A program made the translations under genes and the position numbers. Positions 5,802 through 44,136 of a DNA stretch of 64,000 nt are shown in pieces. The notes beneath the pieces are model-generated. The model was given only the letters and a program-made list of their open reading frames with translations, was not told where the DNA came from and did not search any database. The DNA comes from Burkholderiales bacterium. Lineage in GTDB: Bacteria; Pseudomonadota; Gammaproteobacteria; Burkholderiales; SG8-41. How positions within the stretch are numbered: the first letter of the stretch is position 1; the number at the start of each line of letters is the position of its first letter. The stretch lies in assembly GCA_019744975.1 (NCBI GenBank), contig JAIETP010000018.1:1371-65370 (forward strand), written 5' to 3'.

Positions 5802-5827
5802 GCGGCATCAACAAACTCATCAGCCCG

Positions 5828-5969
5828 GCCATGCATCAATGGCCGAAAGCCTGCTTAACAGGCCATGCATCAACGGCCGAAAGCCTGCTTATCCGCCAGG
5901 CCACGCATCAACGGCCGAAAGCCTGCTTAACAGGCCAGGCATCAATGGCCGAAAGCCCACTCATCCGCC
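5828..5969. repeat. Tandem repeat, 4 copies, period 34/37 bp
   Basis: Units 'ggcca(t/c/g)gcatcaa(t/c)ggccgaaagcctgctta..' start at 5828, 5862, 5899 and 5933. Each contains the hairpin ggccat-gcatca-atggcc. The last unit overlaps the 3' end of the CHI-like gene. Confidence 0.9.
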
Positions 5970-7808: not shown

Positions 7809-7964
7809 TTTACAATCGGTGAAAAGTGAACGGGTGAACGAGTGAGCCCCCTCTCCCCAACCCTCTCCCCCGGTGACGGGGGAGAGGGAGAATTTCGGGG
7901 TTACCCGTTCACCCGTTCACTTTTCACCCGTTCACGCCTCATACCAGATTCACCCGTTCACTAG
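7809..7964. repeat. Composite nested inverted-repeat element (octamer arms plus GC hairpin), copy 1, filling the gap between the fadB-like gene and fadA
   Basis: Left arm 'gtgaaaagtgaacgggtgaacgagtga' (7819-7845) is the reverse complement of 7903-7929 with 1 mismatch. Inner hairpin ccctctccccc (7861-7871) pairs with gggggagaggg (7878-7888). An extra 'cacccgttcac' lies at 7951-7961. Confidence 0.9.
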
Positions 7965-12429: not shown

Positions 12430-12440
12430 TCGTCACCCCT

Positions 12441-12468
12441 CACCTAATCACCTAATCACCTAATCACC
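12441..12468. repeat. 8-bp tandem repeat 'cacctaat' x3.5 (minus strand 'taggtgat', SD-like)
   Basis: Read directly at 12441-12468. Lies in the 43-bp gap between the acyl-CoA ligase stop and the thioesterase start. Confidence 0.95.
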
Positions 12469-27801: not shown

Positions 27802-28581
27802 TTAAATGGGGGCAAGCGCAGCCGATTGCAAGCGCTGCATGGTCTCAACCGCGAAACACAAATCCTCCCACGCTTTCGACTTGTCCGACAGCGTGCGCAG
27901 CAGGTAGGCCGGATGATAGGTGACGAGCAACGGGATTCCGCGATAGGCGTGCTGCTGCCCGCGCAGACTGGCAATGCTGGCATCGCGCCCGAGCAGGTTG
28001 ACCGCGGCCACCTTGCCGAGCGCAATGATCAGTTTCGGCTGAATCAGTTCGATCTGCCGCTGCAGGTAGCCACTGCAGGCCTCGGCCTCTTCCGGCTGCG
28101 GATTGCGGTTGCCGGGCGGACGGCATTTGACGATGTTGGCGATATAAACATTGGCGCCGCGTTTGAGCGCAATCGCCGCCAGCATGTTGTCGAGGAGTCT
28201 GCCCGCCTGTCCGACAAAGGGTTCGCCCTGCGCATCCTCATCCGCACCCGGGCCTTCGCCGACAAACAGCCAGTCGGCATTTTCATCGCCGACACCGAAT
28301 ACGGTCTTGTTGCGTTTCTGGTGCAGGACGCAGGCCGTGCAATCCGCGACACAGGCTTTCAGTGCCGGCCAATCCATGCCGGCAACCGGACCCGGATCGC
28401 CGCCACGGGCAACAACCGGCGCTGCGGGTTCACGGGCAGTCAGCGCCGCTGCCGTATCAGCCGCGACCGCAATCTCCGCCTGTGGCGCGTCACGCAACCG
28501 CCATACCGGGCTGATGCCGATTTCCTTCAGCAGTTCATCACGGTGCATATTCTGGCCATCAGTCATATCAAGGCGCGGCAT
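27802..28581 (-). CDS. udg: Family-4 uracil-DNA glycosylase (4Fe-4S type)
   Basis: '[21 protein letters not shown]', '[13 protein letters not shown]', 'TYHPAYLLR'. Confidence 0.9.
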
Positions 28582-28675
28582 GAAGTATTACCGCACGTCC
28601 CTCTCATCCGGTAGCGGCACGAAGTATTGCCGCACGTCCCTCTCATCCGGTAGCGGCACGAAGTATTGCCGCCAA
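28577..28675. repeat. 39-bp tandem repeat, 2.5 copies, filling the rimI-udg gap and containing the udg start codon
   Basis: Units start at 28582, 28621 and 28660 ('gaagtatt(a/g)ccgcacgtccctctcatccggtagcggca(c/t)'). Confidence 0.95.
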
Positions 28676-30684: not shown

Positions 30685-30785
30685 GGACGGGGCGAATAAG
30701 GCATCGCCTGGCTTTAAGGACGCGGCGAAGAAATCGTCGCCTGGCATTTATAGGAACGCGGCGAAGACTTCATCGCCTGACCTTA
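30682..30785. repeat. Tandem repeat, 3 copies, period 34-35 bp, each with a ggcga..tcgcc hairpin
   Basis: 'tagggacggggcgaataaggcatcgcctggcttta' / 'aggacgcggcgaagaaatcgtcgcctggcattta' / 'taggaacgcggcgaagacttcatcgcctgacctta'. Confidence 0.9.
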
Positions 30786-42270: not shown

Positions 42271-42828
42271 ATGGACCTGCGCGAACTGCCCCGCACCGAT
42301 CCCGGCACCACGGACCTCGTCCTGCGCGCCGTGGCCTTTGCCGCGCACAAACACCGCGACCAGCGGCGCAAGGACAAGGAAGCCTCGCCCTACATCAACC
42401 ACCCGATTGAACTCGCCCATGTGTTGTGGGACGAAGGTGAAGTGCGCGACCCGCTGGTGATCGCCGCGGCGCTGCTGCACGATACTCTGGAGGACACCGA
42501 AACCTCGTGGCAGGAATTGCGCGGCGAATTCGGCGAGGAAATCGCCGACATCGTGCTCGAAGTCACCGACACCAAATGGATCCGCAAGGAACTGCGCAAG
42601 CGCCTGCAGGTTGCCAGGGCCAGACACTCCAGCGAACGGGCACGGCTGGTCAAACTCGCCGACAAGATCTGCAACGTGCGCGACCTCGGCACCCGCGCAC
42701 CCGAAGGCTGGTCGCTGGAACGCAAACGCCAGTACTTTGACTGGGCAAAGGAGGTGGTCGACCGGCTGCGCGGCACGCATGCCGAACTGGAACGCCGCTT
42801 TGACGAAGTTTACGCGTTAAGACCCTGA
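42271..42828 (+). CDS. HD-domain (p)ppGpp pyrophosphohydrolase-like protein (Mesh1/SpoT-N small alarmone hydrolase type)
   Basis: 'AAHKHRDQRRKD..PYINHPIELA', 'AALLHDTLEDT', 'VKLADKICN'. Confidence 0.8.
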   Translation: MDLRELPRTDPGTTDLVLRAVAFAAHKHRDQRRKDKEASPYINHPIELAHVLWDEGEVRDPLVIAAALLHDTLEDTETSWQELRGEFGEEIADIVLEVTDTKWIRKELRKRLQVARARHSSERARLVKLADKICNVRDLGTRAPEGWSLERKRQYFDWAKEVVDRLRGTHAELERRFDEVYALRP

Positions 42829-42834
42829 GATTCA

Positions 42835-42993
42835 GTGAACAGTGAACGGGTGAACGAGTGAATACCCCTCTCCCCAGCCCTCTCCCCGTGCAACGGGGAG
42901 AGGGAGCACACCACGGGATTTCCCGTTCACCCGTTCACCCGTTCACCCGTTCACCCGTTCACCCGTTCACCCGTTCACCCGTTCACCCGTTCA
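42835..42993. repeat. Composite element copy 2: degenerate 'gtgaacNg' octamers, GC hairpin, then 9 perfect tandem 'cccgttca' octamers
   Basis: Left arm 42835-42862. Hairpin ccctctccccg (42878-42888) pairs with cggggagaggg (42894-42904). Octamer array 42922-42993 (72 bp). Confidence 0.95.
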
Positions 42994-43053
42994 CCAAATT
43001 TGATGAGTGTGCGATAGTCGCGGTTCTTTTCAAACACCGCACATTGCAAAGCC

Positions 43054-44136
43054 ATGAAAATCACCCACGCCAGCACCGTCCTTGTCGCCCTCCCCCATGA
43101 TGAACCGCTCGCCGACGGCCCGACCACGCCCGGCTCGAAAAACTTCATCGCGCTGAAACTCGGTACCGACCAGGGCGTCGAAGGCCTGGGTTTCACCTTT
43201 TTCGGCGGAGCGCTCGACAGTGCACTGTTCGCCGCCGTCGAATCCTTCGCCGCGCTGACCATCGGCGAAGACCCGCGGCGCATCGAAGCCATCATCCACA
43301 AGCTGCGCACCGCAGCGGCAAGCGCCGGTCCCGGCGGCATCATGACGCTGGCACTGTCGGCGATCGACATCGCGTTGTGGGACATCAAGGGCAAGGTACA
43401 CAACCAGCCGGTATCGGCCCTCGCTGGCGGCCACCGCAACCGCATCAACACATACGCCAGCGGCGCACTGATGCGCCACTTCCCGCTGGCACACCTCGAA
43501 AAAGCGGCGGTGCTGCTGAAAAGCCGCGGCTTCAAACAGATGAAAACCCAGCTGGCCCTCCCCGGGGACACCAATCCGGTGAAGGAAGTTGAACACATCC
43601 GCGTGATCCGCGAAGCCGTCGGTTACGAAACCGACCTGATGTGCGACATCAACCAGCGCTGGGACGTGCGCCAGGCGATTTCCATCGGCAGGCAGGTCGA
43701 TCAGTTCCGCCTGTTCTGGCTGGAGGATGTTACGGCCTCGGACGATTACGCCGGCATCGCACGAGTCGCCGATGCGCTGGACACACCCATCGCCGGTGGC
43801 GAATACCTCTACGGCATCGCGCCGTTTCGCCAGATGCTCGAGGCGCGTTCAGTCGACATCGTCATGATCGATGTGCTGCGCGCCGGCGGCATCACGCAAT
43901 GGCTGAAAATCGCCGGCATGGCCGAAGCCTTCAACCTGCCGGTGGTCAGCCACCTCGCTCCGGAAATCCATGTACACCTGGTGTCAGCGATACCCAACGG
44001 CCTGACCGTGGAATACATGCCCTGGTCGTCGCGGCTGTTCCGCGACGTGCCGCAACCGAAAGACGGACAGTTGACGGTACCGCAACGTCCGGGTCTGGGT
44101 CTTGAGTTTGATCCCAAGGTGGTGAAGTTCAAATAA
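43054..44136 (+). CDS. Mandelate racemase / muconate lactonizing enzyme family protein (enolase superfamily)
   Basis: 'AIDIALWDIKGK', 'LMCDINQRW', 'WLEDV', 'IAGGE' metal ligand pattern. Confidence 0.85.
   Translation: MKITHASTVLVALPHDEPLADGPTTPGSKNFIALKLGTDQGVEGLGFTFFGGALDSALFAAVESFAALTIGEDPRRIEAIIHKLRTAAASAGPGGIMTLALSAIDIALWDIKGKVHNQPVSALAGGHRNRINTYASGALMRHFPLAHLEKAAVLLKSRGFKQMKTQLALPGDTNPVKEVEHIRVIREAVGYETDLMCDINQRWDVRQAISIGRQVDQFRLFWLEDVTASDDYAGIARVADALDTPIAGGEYLYGIAPFRQMLEARSVDIVMIDVLRAGGITQWLKIAGMAEAFNLPVVSHLAPEIHVHLVSAIPNGLTVEYMPWSSRLFRDVPQPKDGQLTVPQRPGLGLEFDPKVVKFK

What the first reader, a model, noticed from the sequence alone, without database searches (positions are those of the whole stretch)
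42835..43053. Nine perfect 8-bp tandem repeats in a composite element between the HD-hydrolase stop and the enolase-family start
'cccgttca' repeats 9 times without a mismatch (42922-42993, 72 bp). On the other side of a GC hairpin (42878-42904) lie 3-4 degenerate inverse octamers ('gtgaacagtgaacgggtgaacgagtgaa', 42835-42862). The left arm and hairpin are homologous to the element between the fadB-like gene and fadA at 7809-7964, which has only about 4 interrupted right-arm units.

Perfect short-unit arrays are slippage-prone. An 8-bp step is not a multiple of 3 and rotates promoter elements by about 0.76 of a turn. The array ends 60 bp before the ATG at 43054. It could therefore act as a phase-variable or tunable promoter spacer, or as an iteron-like protein-binding array.
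Basis: partly seen in the sequence, partly recalled or inferred. Interest (0 to 1): 0.6.

Follow-up and report, generated by a model that had tools for sequence, protein, structure and literature searches.

The report
Repeat-armed hairpin element between two genes
The nine perfect 8-base repeats are real, but they are the over-grown arm of one copy of a hairpin-forming repeat scattered through this genome, not a promoter spacer; such elements are known but unexplained, and here they share their arms with small four-helix-bundle genes.

Summary
Observation confirmed. CCCGTTCA x9.2 is perfect at 42922-42995. It faces 3.5 inverse units at 42835-42862 across a GC hairpin, and the copy at 7809-7964 is homologous.

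Interpretation mostly not supported. The array is the right arm of one of about 20-30 dispersed palindromes, (GTGAACGN)n-core/loop-(NCGTTCAC)m.
- 19 of 20 paired copies lie between co-directional genes, 3-60 nt from the stop and start codons.
- The genome holds 212 intergenic arrays of 7-9-nt units in at least 8 unit families. 86 of 87 palindromes have the purine-rich arm 5'.
- A motif conserved across the genus, the likely promoter or operator, lies downstream of the array.
- Three near-clonal assemblies show 9 units. A species about 15% diverged keeps 9 identical units (72/72) plus one degenerate unit.
- Closer relatives carry a different heptamer-armed palindrome, or nothing, in the same spacer.
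- All four PF05635 four-helix-bundle genes of this genome sit in loops of such palindromes. One has GTGAACG arms.

Best reading: a gene-less relative of the cassettes known from 23S rRNA intervening sequences. It is tolerated in transcribed spacers because it folds out as a hairpin (a possible RNase III substrate), and one arm was expanded by slippage.

The parts
42271..42828 (+). Upstream gene: small HD-domain protein, resembling the hydrolase domain of SpoT/RelA. Its stop codon lies 6 nt before the element.
   Evidence: Pfam HD_4/HD; NCBIfam partial spoT_relA match below cut-off.
42835..42862 (.). Left, purine-rich arm: 3.5 octamer units GTGAACA GTGAACGG GTGAACGA GTGAA.
   Evidence: One near-strain (L135, 94.7% identical) has one unit fewer.
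42866..42904 (.). Nested GC-rich REP-like module: a direct copy CCCCTCTCCCC followed by the stem-loop CCCTCTCCCCG-tgcaa-CGGGGAGAGGG.
   Evidence: It is the only helix kept in the centroid fold. 8 of 10 strict copies in the genome lie inside GTGAACG-family elements, in either orientation. 38/39 identical to G012.
42905..42921 (.). Spacer holding the decayed right half of the family core (cacgggatttcc, compare CGGGGTTACC).
   Evidence: Comparison of about 30 copies. Only 10/17 identical to G012.
42922..42993 (.). Right, pyrimidine-rich arm: 9 perfect units CCCGTTCA (= NCGTTCAC). About 5.5 units have no partner in the left arm.
   Evidence: 72/72 identical to G012. 9 units in L132 and L138.
43008..43022 (+). 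Conserved palindromic motif TGTGCGATAGTCGCG, a candidate extended -10 (TGcGATAGT) or operator of the downstream gene. It lies downstream of the array.
   Evidence: Conserved at the same distance from the ATG in species with and without the element. The role is inferred. The scan tool flags it only as a weak hairpin plus T-run.
43054..44136 (+). Downstream gene: enolase-superfamily protein of acid-sugar dehydratase type.
   Evidence: Pfam MR_MLE_N/MR_MLE_C; best NCBIfam match L-talarate/galactarate dehydratase, below cut-off.
7819..7961 (.). Second copy of the same family in the window. It fills the fadB-like/fadA intercistronic gap.
   Evidence: The orthologous copy in G009 has different unit numbers.

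Best explanation
The array is the expanded 3' arm of a gene-less foldback element. The family reads (GTGAACGN)n - GGTAACCCCG...CGGGGTTACC core or loop - (NCGTTCAC)m, and this copy has a REP-like GC hairpin nested in its loop. It belongs to a class of intergenic palindromes whose arms are tandem 7-9-nt units. The gene-bearing relatives of this class are the PF05635 four-helix-bundle cassettes, the architecture known from ORF-bearing 23S rRNA intervening sequences.

Shown here:
- It is a dispersed family.
- It sits almost only in short spacers between co-directional genes.
- The purine-rich arm always comes first.
- Unit numbers and even unit families turn over between species at the same gaps.
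- One gene-bearing copy with the same arms exists in this genome.

Inferred:
- The element is transcribed with its neighbours and folds into a long hairpin that brings the upstream stop and the downstream region together. That is why it is tolerated inside operons.
- A stem of about 27 bp would be an RNase III substrate, as shown experimentally for the Coxiella intervening sequence.
- The 9 perfect units arose, and are kept uniform, by slipped-strand mispairing within one arm. This leaves about 44 nt of C-rich repeat without a partner.

It is not part of the downstream gene's promoter geometry.
For: Family and context:
- About 30 copies with shared arms and a shared unique core. Counts of GTGAACGNGTGAAC are 82 in G000, 48 in G009 and 0-15 in other species of the genus.
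- 19/20 paired copies lie between co-directional genes against a 69% baseline, P about 0.006, at 3-60 nt from stop and start where the gene calls are sound.
- 8 of 10 strict GC hairpins lie inside family copies, so the composite spread as a unit.

Class level:
- 212 intergenic arrays of period 7-9. 140 have an inverted partner, against 20/214 arrays in coding sequence.
- 86/87 palindromes have the purine-rich arm first, across at least 9 unit families.

Gene link:
- All 4 PF05635 genes of G000 lie in loops of such palindromes. Each has a different unit family, and one has GTGAACG arms.
- The same holds for 30/30 genes inspected in the genus, and by eye for most of 27 loci across the phylum.

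Structure and slippage:
- RNA fold z = -7.3. The MFE structure makes up only 0.3% of the ensemble, because the left arm can pair in many registers.
- Arms covary at an orthologous locus: GTGAACG/CGTTCAC against GTGAAGAA/TTCTTCAC and GTGAATG/CATTCAC.
- Unit-number differences and 12% indel columns in orthologous arms.
- The array is 72/72 identical between G000 and G012, while other non-coding columns are 90/113 identical; P about 8e-8 under neutrality.

Support from elsewhere:
- An RNase III gene is present.
- Print: RNase III excises the Coxiella IVS at a 28-bp stem that contains strain-variable tandem heptamers (PMC4990558). G-rich heptamer arrays of Xanthomonas and Nostoc follow the same placement rules, and most of those examined in Xanthomonas citri (Xac) are transcribed (PMC4692102).
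Against:
- No transposase, target-site duplication or observed movement supports mobility. The four Y1_Tnp genes are not flanked by these repeats.
- The same count of 9 perfect units in two species about 15% apart fits selection on the array as well as slippage-driven homogenisation. Slippage alone would predict drift in number.
- Arms in general are no more conserved than flanking coding DNA (86.8% against 89.5%), so constraint on ordinary copies is weak.
- This copy lies upstream of a gene that seems to have its own promoter or operator. It may therefore be a 3'-UTR element rather than intercistronic.
Confidence: 0.6

Rival explanations
1. Binding platform for a cognate protein. The tandem units, as RNA or single-stranded DNA, would be bound one unit per subunit by the ring-shaped PF05635 four-helix-bundle protein encoded in the GTGAACG-armed cassette of the same genome (contig C24:5262-5703). 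Gene-less copies such as this one would be trans targets. The 9-unit arm would offer unpaired sites.
For: - Each of the 4 PF05635 genes of G000 has arms of a different unit family. All four families also have gene-less arrays in G000, about 34, 30, 13-15 and 6 arrays; a fifth of those arrays or fewer can be the cassettes' own arms.
- At the same locus, protein divergence tracks the arm family. Cassette proteins are 58-68% identical, while the genus is about 83-93% identical in DNA in flanking genes measured at other loci.
- The closest solved structure, 2GSC, has 5 chains in the entry. It is described as a toroidal homopentamer in PMC4990558. Arms typically have 3-5 units.
- The array and GC hairpin are perfectly conserved against about 20% divergence nearby.
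Against: - No binding data exist.
- At least 3-4 unit families in G000 (GGTGACT, CGCCAAGA, CACAGAG) have no gene-bearing copy.
- Many genomes with such palindromes have no PF05635 gene, for example G002 (98% complete) and G011 (100%).
- Co-occurrence of the GGTRAGC arrays with a cognate-armed gene is imperfect. G003 has 122 hits and no such gene. G009 and G017 have the gene and only 2-4 hits.
- In Coxiella the protein seems not to be made (PMC4990558).
Confidence: 0.2
2. Phase-variable or tunable promoter spacer. Gain or loss of 8-bp units by slippage would change promoter geometry or upstream contacts, and so switch or tune the enolase-family gene.
For: - A perfect 72-bp array is intrinsically prone to slippage.
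- The last unit (TTCACC) lies 17 nt upstream of a -10-like GATAGT preceded by TG (read).
- Several independent assemblies break inside the array. This could reflect length heterogeneity, but is also what a repeat longer than the assembly k-mer produces.
Against: - Adding or removing units does not change the spacing between the last unit and the -10-like motif.
- No consensus promoter spans the array.
- The conserved motif lies downstream of the array and is present without any array in many species.
- All three resolved assemblies have 9 units, and G012 has 9 perfect units.
- The family prefers co-directional gaps and housekeeping neighbours.
- The same conclusion was reached in print for the analogous Xanthomonas and Nostoc arrays (PMC4692102).
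Confidence: 0.06
3. Transcription-polarity element. The unpaired C-rich tail, (CCCGUUCA) x about 5.5, would act as a Rho loading site. Together with the hairpin it would end transcription of the upstream operon before the separately regulated downstream gene.
For: - The array has 50% C and 12.5% G, and about 44 nt have no partner.
- The three longest arrays of this family (10, 9 and 7 units) are all the C-rich arm in the mRNA sense.
- The downstream gene keeps its own conserved upstream motif.
Against: - Across all unit families, long arrays are C-rich or G-rich in the sense strand equally often: 3 against 4 at 6 or more units, 11 against 10 at 4.5 or more.
- The 10-unit and 7-unit arrays end 7-8 nt before the start codons of hisF and an exonuclease gene inside apparent operons, where termination would be harmful.
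- There is no experimental basis.
Confidence: 0.06
4. Purely neutral mutational debris. A hairpin-forming repeat with no effect on the host, whose arm expanded by chance. The apparent conservation would reflect recent homogenisation only.
For: - Ordinary arms evolve about as fast as flanks, with many indels.
- Whole unit families are exchanged at the same gap between species, and many species have an empty gap.
Against: - 72/72 and 38/39 identity of array and hairpin against 79.6% nearby.
- The strict purine-first rule (86/87) and the placement rules show that at least what is tolerated is strongly filtered.
Confidence: 0.08

Closest known systems
Intergenic G-rich heptamer arrays of Xanthomonas and Nostoc (GGGNATC; Rehm et al. 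2015, PMC4692102). More broadly, the 5-11-nt 'long simple sequence repeats' that Mrazek et al. 2007 noted in Burkholderia, as cited in PMC4679880.
   Same: - Tandem units of 7-8 nt, 2-26 copies, spread over the genome.
- Preferred between aligned ORFs and under-represented between divergent ORFs.
- The purine/G-rich strand lies within 50 bp after a stop codon, and its complement just upstream of the next ORF.
- Unit number and sequence differ between close relatives at the same loci.
- Neighbours are housekeeping genes, so phase variation was judged unlikely.
- Inverted pairs able to form stem-loops are mentioned.
   Different: - The unit here is an octamer that cannot form a G-quadruplex.
- Here the inverted pairing is the rule (140/212 arrays).
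- Each family has a unique core.
- The link to PF05635 genes is not made in that paper.
Cyanobacterial STRR (short tandemly repeated repetitive) heptamer hairpins, for example between hupS and hupL (PMC2670836).
   Same: - Tandem 7-nt units able to form a hairpin in an intercistronic spacer.
- Several unit families per genome.
- Function unknown; mRNA stability or translational coupling have been proposed.
   Different: Different phylum and units. No comparative evidence in that source for exchange of unit families at orthologous gaps.
ORF-bearing intervening sequences of 23S rRNA (Coxiella burnetii IVS with S23p; Warrier et al. 2016, PMC4990558) and the PF05635/TIGR02436 four-helix-bundle cassettes.
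   Same: - A stem made of terminal inverted repeats that contain tandem heptamers, whose number varies between strains.
- The same architecture, with GTGAACG arms, surrounds a PF05635 gene in this genome.
- RNase III cleaves the Coxiella stem.
   Different: - The element studied here has no ORF.
- It lies between protein-coding genes, not in rRNA.
- Its cleavage is untested.
REP/REPIN elements with their RAYT transposase (Bertels and Rainey 2011, PMC3116915).
   Same: Short palindromic intergenic repeats in inverted pairs, dispersed in tens of copies, with lineage-specific sequence.
   Different: - The arms here are tandem arrays of variable length.
- No Y1 transposase gene is flanked by them.
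- Several families coexist, and four of them are tied to a non-enzymatic four-helix-bundle gene.
TAACTGA heptamer direct repeats of marine Beggiatoaceae (MacGregor 2015, PMC4679880).
   Same: - 2-6 or more tandem units within a few nucleotides of start codons.
[quoted passage not shown]
- Also found inside ribosomal-protein operons; compare the copy between rpsJ and rplC in G066.
   Different: Those are almost all direct repeats in one orientation (169 direct sets, one indirect). Here inverted pairs dominate.
Phase-variable SSRs in promoters or 5' UTRs (for example the AGAT repeats upstream of Moraxella uspA2, as summarised in PMC4679880).
   Same: A perfect short-unit array upstream of a gene.
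   Different: - Not between promoter hexamers.
- Not next to a surface or contingency gene.
- No strain variation seen in the resolved assemblies.

Membership tests
Intergenic 7-9-nt tandem arrays (STRR / LSSR / Rehm-type heptamer repeats) | Head-to-tail units of 5-11 nt, longer than chance allows, in non-coding DNA | tested here: met
   9.2 perfect octamers. Expected 0.01 pattern hits against 11 observed.
Intergenic 7-9-nt tandem arrays (STRR / LSSR / Rehm-type heptamer repeats) | Many dispersed arrays of the same unit in one genome | tested here: met
   82 two-unit hits in G000; 34 TRF arrays of this unit.
Intergenic 7-9-nt tandem arrays (STRR / LSSR / Rehm-type heptamer repeats) | Preference for gaps between aligned ORFs; purine-rich strand just after the stop codon | tested here: met
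   19/20 co-directional. 86/87 purine-rich arm first. This copy starts 6 nt after the stop.
Intergenic 7-9-nt tandem arrays (STRR / LSSR / Rehm-type heptamer repeats) | Unit number varies between relatives at the same locus | tested here: inconclusive
   Met for the family. For this array: 9 in three near-clonal assemblies and 9 perfect + 1 degenerate in G012. The left arm is one unit shorter in L135.
Intergenic 7-9-nt tandem arrays (STRR / LSSR / Rehm-type heptamer repeats) | Transcribed | not testable with these tools
IVS-type PF05635 four-helix-bundle cassette | Two inverted arms made of tandem short units that can form a long stem | tested here: met
IVS-type PF05635 four-helix-bundle cassette | PF05635 ORF in the loop | tested here: not met
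   The loop is 59 nt and has no ORF. A gene-bearing copy with the same arms lies elsewhere in the genome, at C24:5262-5703. The element is therefore filed as a gene-less relative, not as a cassette.
IVS-type PF05635 four-helix-bundle cassette | Excision by RNase III at the stem | not testable with these tools
   Only the presence of an RNase III gene was checked.
REP/REPIN with RAYT | A single-copy Y1 (RAYT) transposase gene flanked by the repeats | tested here: not met
   4 PF01797 genes. None has GTGAAC units or any inverted 7-9-nt arrays nearby.
MITE | Defined terminal inverted repeats, target-site duplication, parent IS | tested here: inconclusive
   Arms decay outward without sharp ends. 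Filled and empty sites were compared but no duplication could be recognised. No parent transposase was found.
Phase-variation (contingency) SSR | Array between the -35 and -10 hexamers or inside an ORF, so that unit number switches expression | tested here: not met
   No hexamer pair spans it. The conserved motif is downstream. The array is outside any ORF.
Phase-variation (contingency) SSR | Unit number polymorphic within and between strains | tested here: inconclusive
   No variant count in the resolved assemblies. Read-level test impossible.
Iterons | 17-22-bp direct repeats next to a replication initiator gene or origin | tested here: not met
   8-bp units. Neighbours are an HD-domain gene and an enolase-family gene. 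About 30 chromosomal copies.
Rfam RNA families | Match to a curated covariance model | tested here: not met
   Only two chance-level hits, far below the gathering scores.

The most novel reading that the evidence does not exclude
The gene-less repeat-armed palindromes of this genome, including this 9-unit array, and the four PF05635 four-helix-bundle cassettes would be two halves of one system. Each cassette would encode a ring-shaped protein that recognises its own 7-9-nt unit, one unit per subunit, on RNA or single-stranded DNA. The dispersed gene-less copies would be its trans targets, comparable to MITEs for a transposase or REPINs for a RAYT. That would give a function to two long-unexplained things at once: short tandem heptamer/octamer arrays in bacterial intergenic DNA, and the '23S rRNA intervening-sequence protein' family. 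This genus would offer four matched protein-repeat pairs to test.
Probability: 0.2. Interest if true: 0.85.

Novelty: new member of a known kind. Interest (0 to 1): 0.5.

Why it matters
Taken alone, the array is an ordinary, if extreme, member of a class of intergenic heptamer/octamer repeats seen since 1990 in cyanobacteria and later in Xanthomonas, Burkholderia and Beggiatoaceae. Their function is still unknown.

What this locus and genome add:
1. Rules that any explanation must meet: co-directional gaps only, purine-rich arm first in 86 of 87 palindromes, and exchange of whole unit families at the same gap between species only 8-15% apart.
2. A one-genome set of four matched pairs: a four-helix-bundle gene inside arms of unit X, and gene-less elements with unit X at other sites in the same genome.
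3. An array kept letter-perfect across species while its surroundings diverged by 20%.

Together these turn a vague puzzle into bench experiments: binding of each protein to its own unit against foreign units, and RNase III cleavage of the stems. For annotation, the lesson is that such perfect arrays upstream of genes should not be read as phase-variation switches by default.

Tried and rejected
1. RAYT/REPIN model. Four PF01797 genes were found, but none has these repeats in its flanks. Rejected.
2. Rho loading (rut) model based on strand bias. Long arrays of all families are C-rich or G-rich in the sense strand equally often. Not supported.
3. Target-site duplication. Filled, empty and differently filled orthologous sites were compared at 8 loci. 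No duplication was recognisable, because the arms decay outward and the empty sites are too diverged.
5. Strain comparison by exact-protein look-up. It returned only near-clonal contigs (99.4-100%), plus two more distant ones that break before or inside the array. Contig breaks in the array are uninformative, because the repeat is longer than typical assembly k-mers.
6. The metagenome scan with the downstream protein gave only an empty site at 93% amino-acid identity and more distant relatives.
7. Rfam: no family.
8. Consensus promoter scan: none.
9. Strict co-occurrence of a gene-less unit family with its cognate-armed PF05635 gene across 40 genomes of the genus. It is imperfect, so the cognate-system idea stays a minority reading.
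10. Literal sequence search of the unit in the paper library gave only a chance hit. Elhai et al. 2008 on small dispersed repeats in Nostoc is not held.
Full report
OBSERVATION

The sequence is as described. Tandem Repeats Finder reports period 8, 9.2 copies, 100% matches and no indels at 42922-42995, with consensus CCCGTTCA. The raw sequence agrees. A two-unit pattern occurs 11 times in the window against 0.01 expected from shuffles.

Upstream lie 3.5 inverse units (42835-42862). Next comes a direct copy CCCCTCTCCCC (42866-42875), then the stem-loop CCCTCTCCCCG-tgcaa-CGGGGAGAGGG (42878-42904), then a 17-nt spacer. The HD-domain gene stops at 42828, and the enolase-superfamily gene starts at 43054. 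The element at 7809-7964 has the same arms and the same GC hairpin.

As RNA the stretch folds at -77.7 kcal/mol, against -48.3 +/- 4.0 for shuffles. The best structure makes up only 0.3% of the ensemble, and the centroid keeps only the GC hairpin. The short left arm can pair with the long right arm in many registers.

A DISPERSED FAMILY

The window lies in a 3.69-Mb, 60.5% GC draft genome of 44 contigs (G000), an uncultured member of the Burkholderiales (record titles of relatives).

About 30 places in the genome have the same design: (GTGAACGN)n, then a core GGTAACCCCG...CGGGGTTACC with a short loop or an insert, then (NCGTTCAC)m. Arms have 1-10 units. The pattern GTGAACGNGTGAAC occurs 82 times in G000, 48 in G009, 15 in G001, 12 each in G012 and G229, and 0-3 in the other 35 species of the genus. 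Among 200 genomes from the rest of the order, the three-unit pattern GTGAACGNGTGAACGNGTGAAC is found in only two, with 4 hits and 1 hit. Those copies have the same architecture; one lies between rpsJ and rplC.

Eight of the ten strict CCCTCTCCCC...GGGGAGAGGG hairpins of G000 lie inside copies of this family, in either orientation. The composite therefore multiplied as a unit.

With a home-made gene caller, 19 of 20 paired copies lie between co-directional genes. The baseline is 69% of all gaps, giving a binomial P of about 0.006. Most copies fill the gap, starting 3-18 nt after a stop codon and ending 3-60 nt before the next start. The few larger distances are gene-caller misses.

The two other long arrays of the family are:
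- 10 units in the hisA-hisF gap, ending 7 nt before the hisF ATG.
- 7 units ending 8 nt before an exonuclease gene.

THIS SPACER IN OTHER GENOMES

Exact-protein look-ups found contigs from other samples.
- L132 (99.97% identical) and L138 (100%) resolve the array with 9 units.
- Four contigs break inside it, and one more (L134) ends in the GC hairpin just before it.
- L135 (94.7%) lacks one left-arm unit.

These are near-clonal, so they say little about long-term stability. The breaks are what a 72-bp repeat does to short-read assemblers.

Among species of the genus:
- G012 has the same element with 9 perfect units plus one degenerate unit.
- G001, G002, G007, G009, G019, G022 and G024 have a heptamer-armed palindrome of the GGTGAYT type that reaches the ATG. 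G003 has only a right-arm array of heptamers. In G009 an array of at least 22 GGTGATG units breaks the assembly.
- G021 has a GTGCAAA-type palindrome.
- G023 has no recognisable palindrome and has lost the conserved motif; I did not classify it.
- G004, G006, G008, G010, G011, G013, G015, G016, G017, G018 and the metagenome contig L140 have no element. G020 has no element and no recognisable motif.

Species without an element (G020 excepted), and also G000 and G012, keep a motif TGTGCGAT(A/T)(G/T)TCGCG about 35-45 nt before the ATG. In G000 it lies at 43008-43022, downstream of the array.

G009 and G022 are closer to G000 in the flanking genes (90-93% identity) than G012 is (85-87%). So the GTGAACG element is either old and was replaced in G009 and G022, or it was gained twice.

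In the G000/G012 alignment:
- array: 72/72 identical;
- GC module: 38/39;
- left arm: 31/36;
- spacer: 10/17;
- the 60 nt after the array: 49/60.

Taking the 79.6% identity of the other non-coding columns as the neutral rate, 72 unchanged bases have P of about 8e-8. Either the array is under selection, or slippage keeps it uniform.

TURNOVER AT OTHER GAPS

G009 is collinear with G000 at about 91% identity. Of its 17 family copies, 16 could be paired with a single G000 interval.
- 12 of these G000 intervals hold a counterpart of the same family, with arms differing by 1-2 units, loops replaced, and the GC hairpin inverted in several.
- In 2 the G000 units have drifted to GTGAAGGN.
- In 1 a different family (CGCCAAGA) occupies the gap, and in 1 an unrelated 600-bp insert.

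Over 13 orthologous pairs, arm columns are 86.8% identical with 12% indel columns. Flanking coding DNA is 89.5% identical. Ordinary arms are therefore not strongly conserved.

Conversely, seven gaps that carry the GTGAACG family in G000 were read in G009, G012, G022 and G001, as far as each gap was recovered. Most carry another family there; some are empty and a few carry the same family. In the hisA-hisF gap, G009 and G001 have CACAGAG 9-mers, G012 has GAGGATT, and G022 has GGTGACT/GGTAATT.

THE GENERAL CLASS IN THIS GENOME

G000 has 212 mostly intergenic arrays of period 7-9 with at least 2.5 copies. 140 of them have an inverted partner within 250 bp, against 20 of 214 arrays in coding DNA. 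At least eight unit families exist: GTGAACGG, GGTGATTA, GAGGATT, GATGAGT, GGTGACT, CGCCAAGA, CACAGAGNN and ACAGGATG. The array studied here is the third longest in that list, which by a gene-caller artefact omits the 10-unit hisA-hisF array.

In 86 of 87 palindromes the purine-rich arm comes first. Because a palindrome reads alike on both strands, this is an intrinsic rule of the class, not a matter of orientation.

164 of 208 arrays with two called neighbours lie in co-directional gaps.

LINK TO FOUR-HELIX-BUNDLE GENES

One family copy has a 388-bp loop (C24:5262-5703, between nadK and recN). The loop encodes a 121-aa TIGR02436/PF05635 'four helix bundle' protein, whose GTG start is the last GTG of the left arm.

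All four PF05635 genes of G000 lie in loops of such palindromes, each with a different unit: GTGAACG, GTGATTA, GAGGATT and GATGAGT. All four units also have gene-less arrays in G000.

All 30 genes inspected in 17 species of the genus are framed in the same way, as are most of 27 loci across the phylum. The purine-rich arm lies upstream of the ORF, and the downstream pyrimidine-rich arm is often expanded to 9-14 units.

At one and the same locus, cassettes with proteins only 58-68% identical have different arm families. Flanking genes measured at other loci in the genus are about 83-93% identical in DNA. This points to exchange of whole cassettes.

The closest solved structure is 2GSC of Xanthomonas, with five chains in the entry.

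Earlier notes of this scan describe the same gene-in-repeat-hairpin design in many phyla. I reached it independently and used those notes for pointers to the literature.

WHAT IS IN PRINT

- Rehm et al. 2015 (PMC4692102) describe G-rich heptamer arrays in Xanthomonas and Nostoc with the same placement rules, unit-number variation between close relatives, and housekeeping neighbours. Most of the arrays they examined in Xanthomonas citri (Xac) are transcribed. They judged phase variation unlikely.
- STRR heptamer hairpins sit between hupS and hupL in cyanobacteria, function unknown (PMC2670836).
- TAACTGA repeats lie just upstream of start codons in Beggiatoaceae. That paper also cites Mrazek 2007 for 5-11-nt repeats in Burkholderia (PMC4679880).
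- The Coxiella 23S rRNA intervening sequence has a 28-bp stem with strain-variable tandem heptamers around an S23p (PF05635) ORF. RNase III excises it in vitro (PMC4990558).

No paper found by these searches links the gene-less arrays to the gene family.

HOW IT MOST LIKELY WORKS

Shown:
- A dispersed, structured family confined to transcribable spacers.
- A fixed arm polarity.
- Slippage-type changes in unit number.
- Exchange of families at the same gaps.
- A gene-bearing relative in the same genome.

Inferred:
- The element is transcribed with its neighbours and folds out as a hairpin. Stop and start regions stay close, so operon function survives the insertion.
- The stem of about 27 bp is a plausible RNase III substrate. 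The gene for RNase III is present.
- The purine-first rule is inherited from cassettes in which the purine-rich arm supplies the Shine-Dalgarno-like leader, and here even the start codon, of the loop ORF.
- The 9-unit arm is a slippage expansion, of the kind common in the downstream arm of cassettes.

I could not decide whether the perfect conservation of the array reflects selection (for example as a binding platform) or homogenisation.

A promoter-spacer switch is not supported.
- The last unit always keeps the same distance to the -10-like TGcGATAGT, whatever the unit number.
- The conserved motif lies downstream of the array.
- The class avoids divergent gaps.
- No count other than 9 was seen.

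An array bound by a protein stays possible, but with the PF05635 protein as the candidate rather than a replication initiator.

LIMITS

- No reads or transcriptomes could be consulted.
- Gene calls outside the window are my own crude calls.
- Relatedness among species was judged from about 450 nt of flanks.
- No mechanism of movement was found. No transposase is associated and no target-site duplication was seen.

Noticed in passing
window 43008-43022: Palindromic motif TGTGCGATAGTCGCG upstream of the enolase-family gene. It is conserved across the genus at a fixed distance from the ATG. One variant keeps the symmetry by changes on both sides (GCCATAGTGGC in L007/G008). It is a candidate operator or extended -10, and the scan tool also flags it as a weak hairpin plus T-run.
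   Followed up: partly
G000 contig C24:5262-5703 (outside the window); also C9:55407-55712, C7:129669-129986, C20:31589-31882: All four PF05635/TIGR02436 four-helix-bundle genes of the genome lie in loops of tandem-repeat-armed palindromes. Each has a different unit family, and each of those families also has gene-less copies in the genome.
   Followed up: yes
window 12440-12468: TCACCTAA x3.6 perfect array (family GGTGATTA/AGGTGATT, Shine-Dalgarno-like on the other strand). It belongs to a second unit family of the same class.
   Followed up: partly
G009 contig C18 end and contig C8 start (L106, L107): At the orthologous spacer the closest relative has a (GGTGATG)n array of at least 22 units. 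It ends one contig and starts another, so its true length is unknown.
   Followed up: partly
G000 contig C9:100339-100487: The longest array of the genome: 21.3 heptamers alternating GTGACTG and GTAACTG. It starts at the stop codon of a membrane-protein gene and faces only 2-3 inverse units. It lies upstream of two small genes that look like a toxin-antitoxin pair.
   Followed up: no
G000 contig C1:25153-25313: A 10-unit GTGAACGG array in the hisA-hisF gap ends 7 nt before the hisF ATG, with no Shine-Dalgarno sequence between. Several other copies likewise abut start codons without a recognisable ribosome-binding site.
   Followed up: partly
G000 C4:58217-58359, C31:760-916; G009 L118: A roughly 30-nt insert (tctgcttcgcttcaagtgtKcccttgac) is nested inside units or loops of several GTGAACG-family copies.
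   Followed up: no
window 5815-5969, 28575-28672, 30685-30779: Longer-period tandem repeats: 34/72 bp x2-3.7, 39 bp x2.5 at 96% identity, and 33 bp x2.8 (TRF). They are unrelated to the octamer family.
   Followed up: no
G000 C2:209429-210397 and three other loci: Four IS200-like Y1_Tnp (PF01797) genes. One encodes a 322-aa protein with a C-terminal extension. None is flanked by the repeat families studied.
   Followed up: partly
G066 contig C25:380-680 (L223): A genome of a different family of the order carries a GTGAACG-armed palindrome between rpsJ and rplC in the S10 ribosomal-protein operon. The family therefore has a patchy distribution outside the genus.
   Followed up: partly
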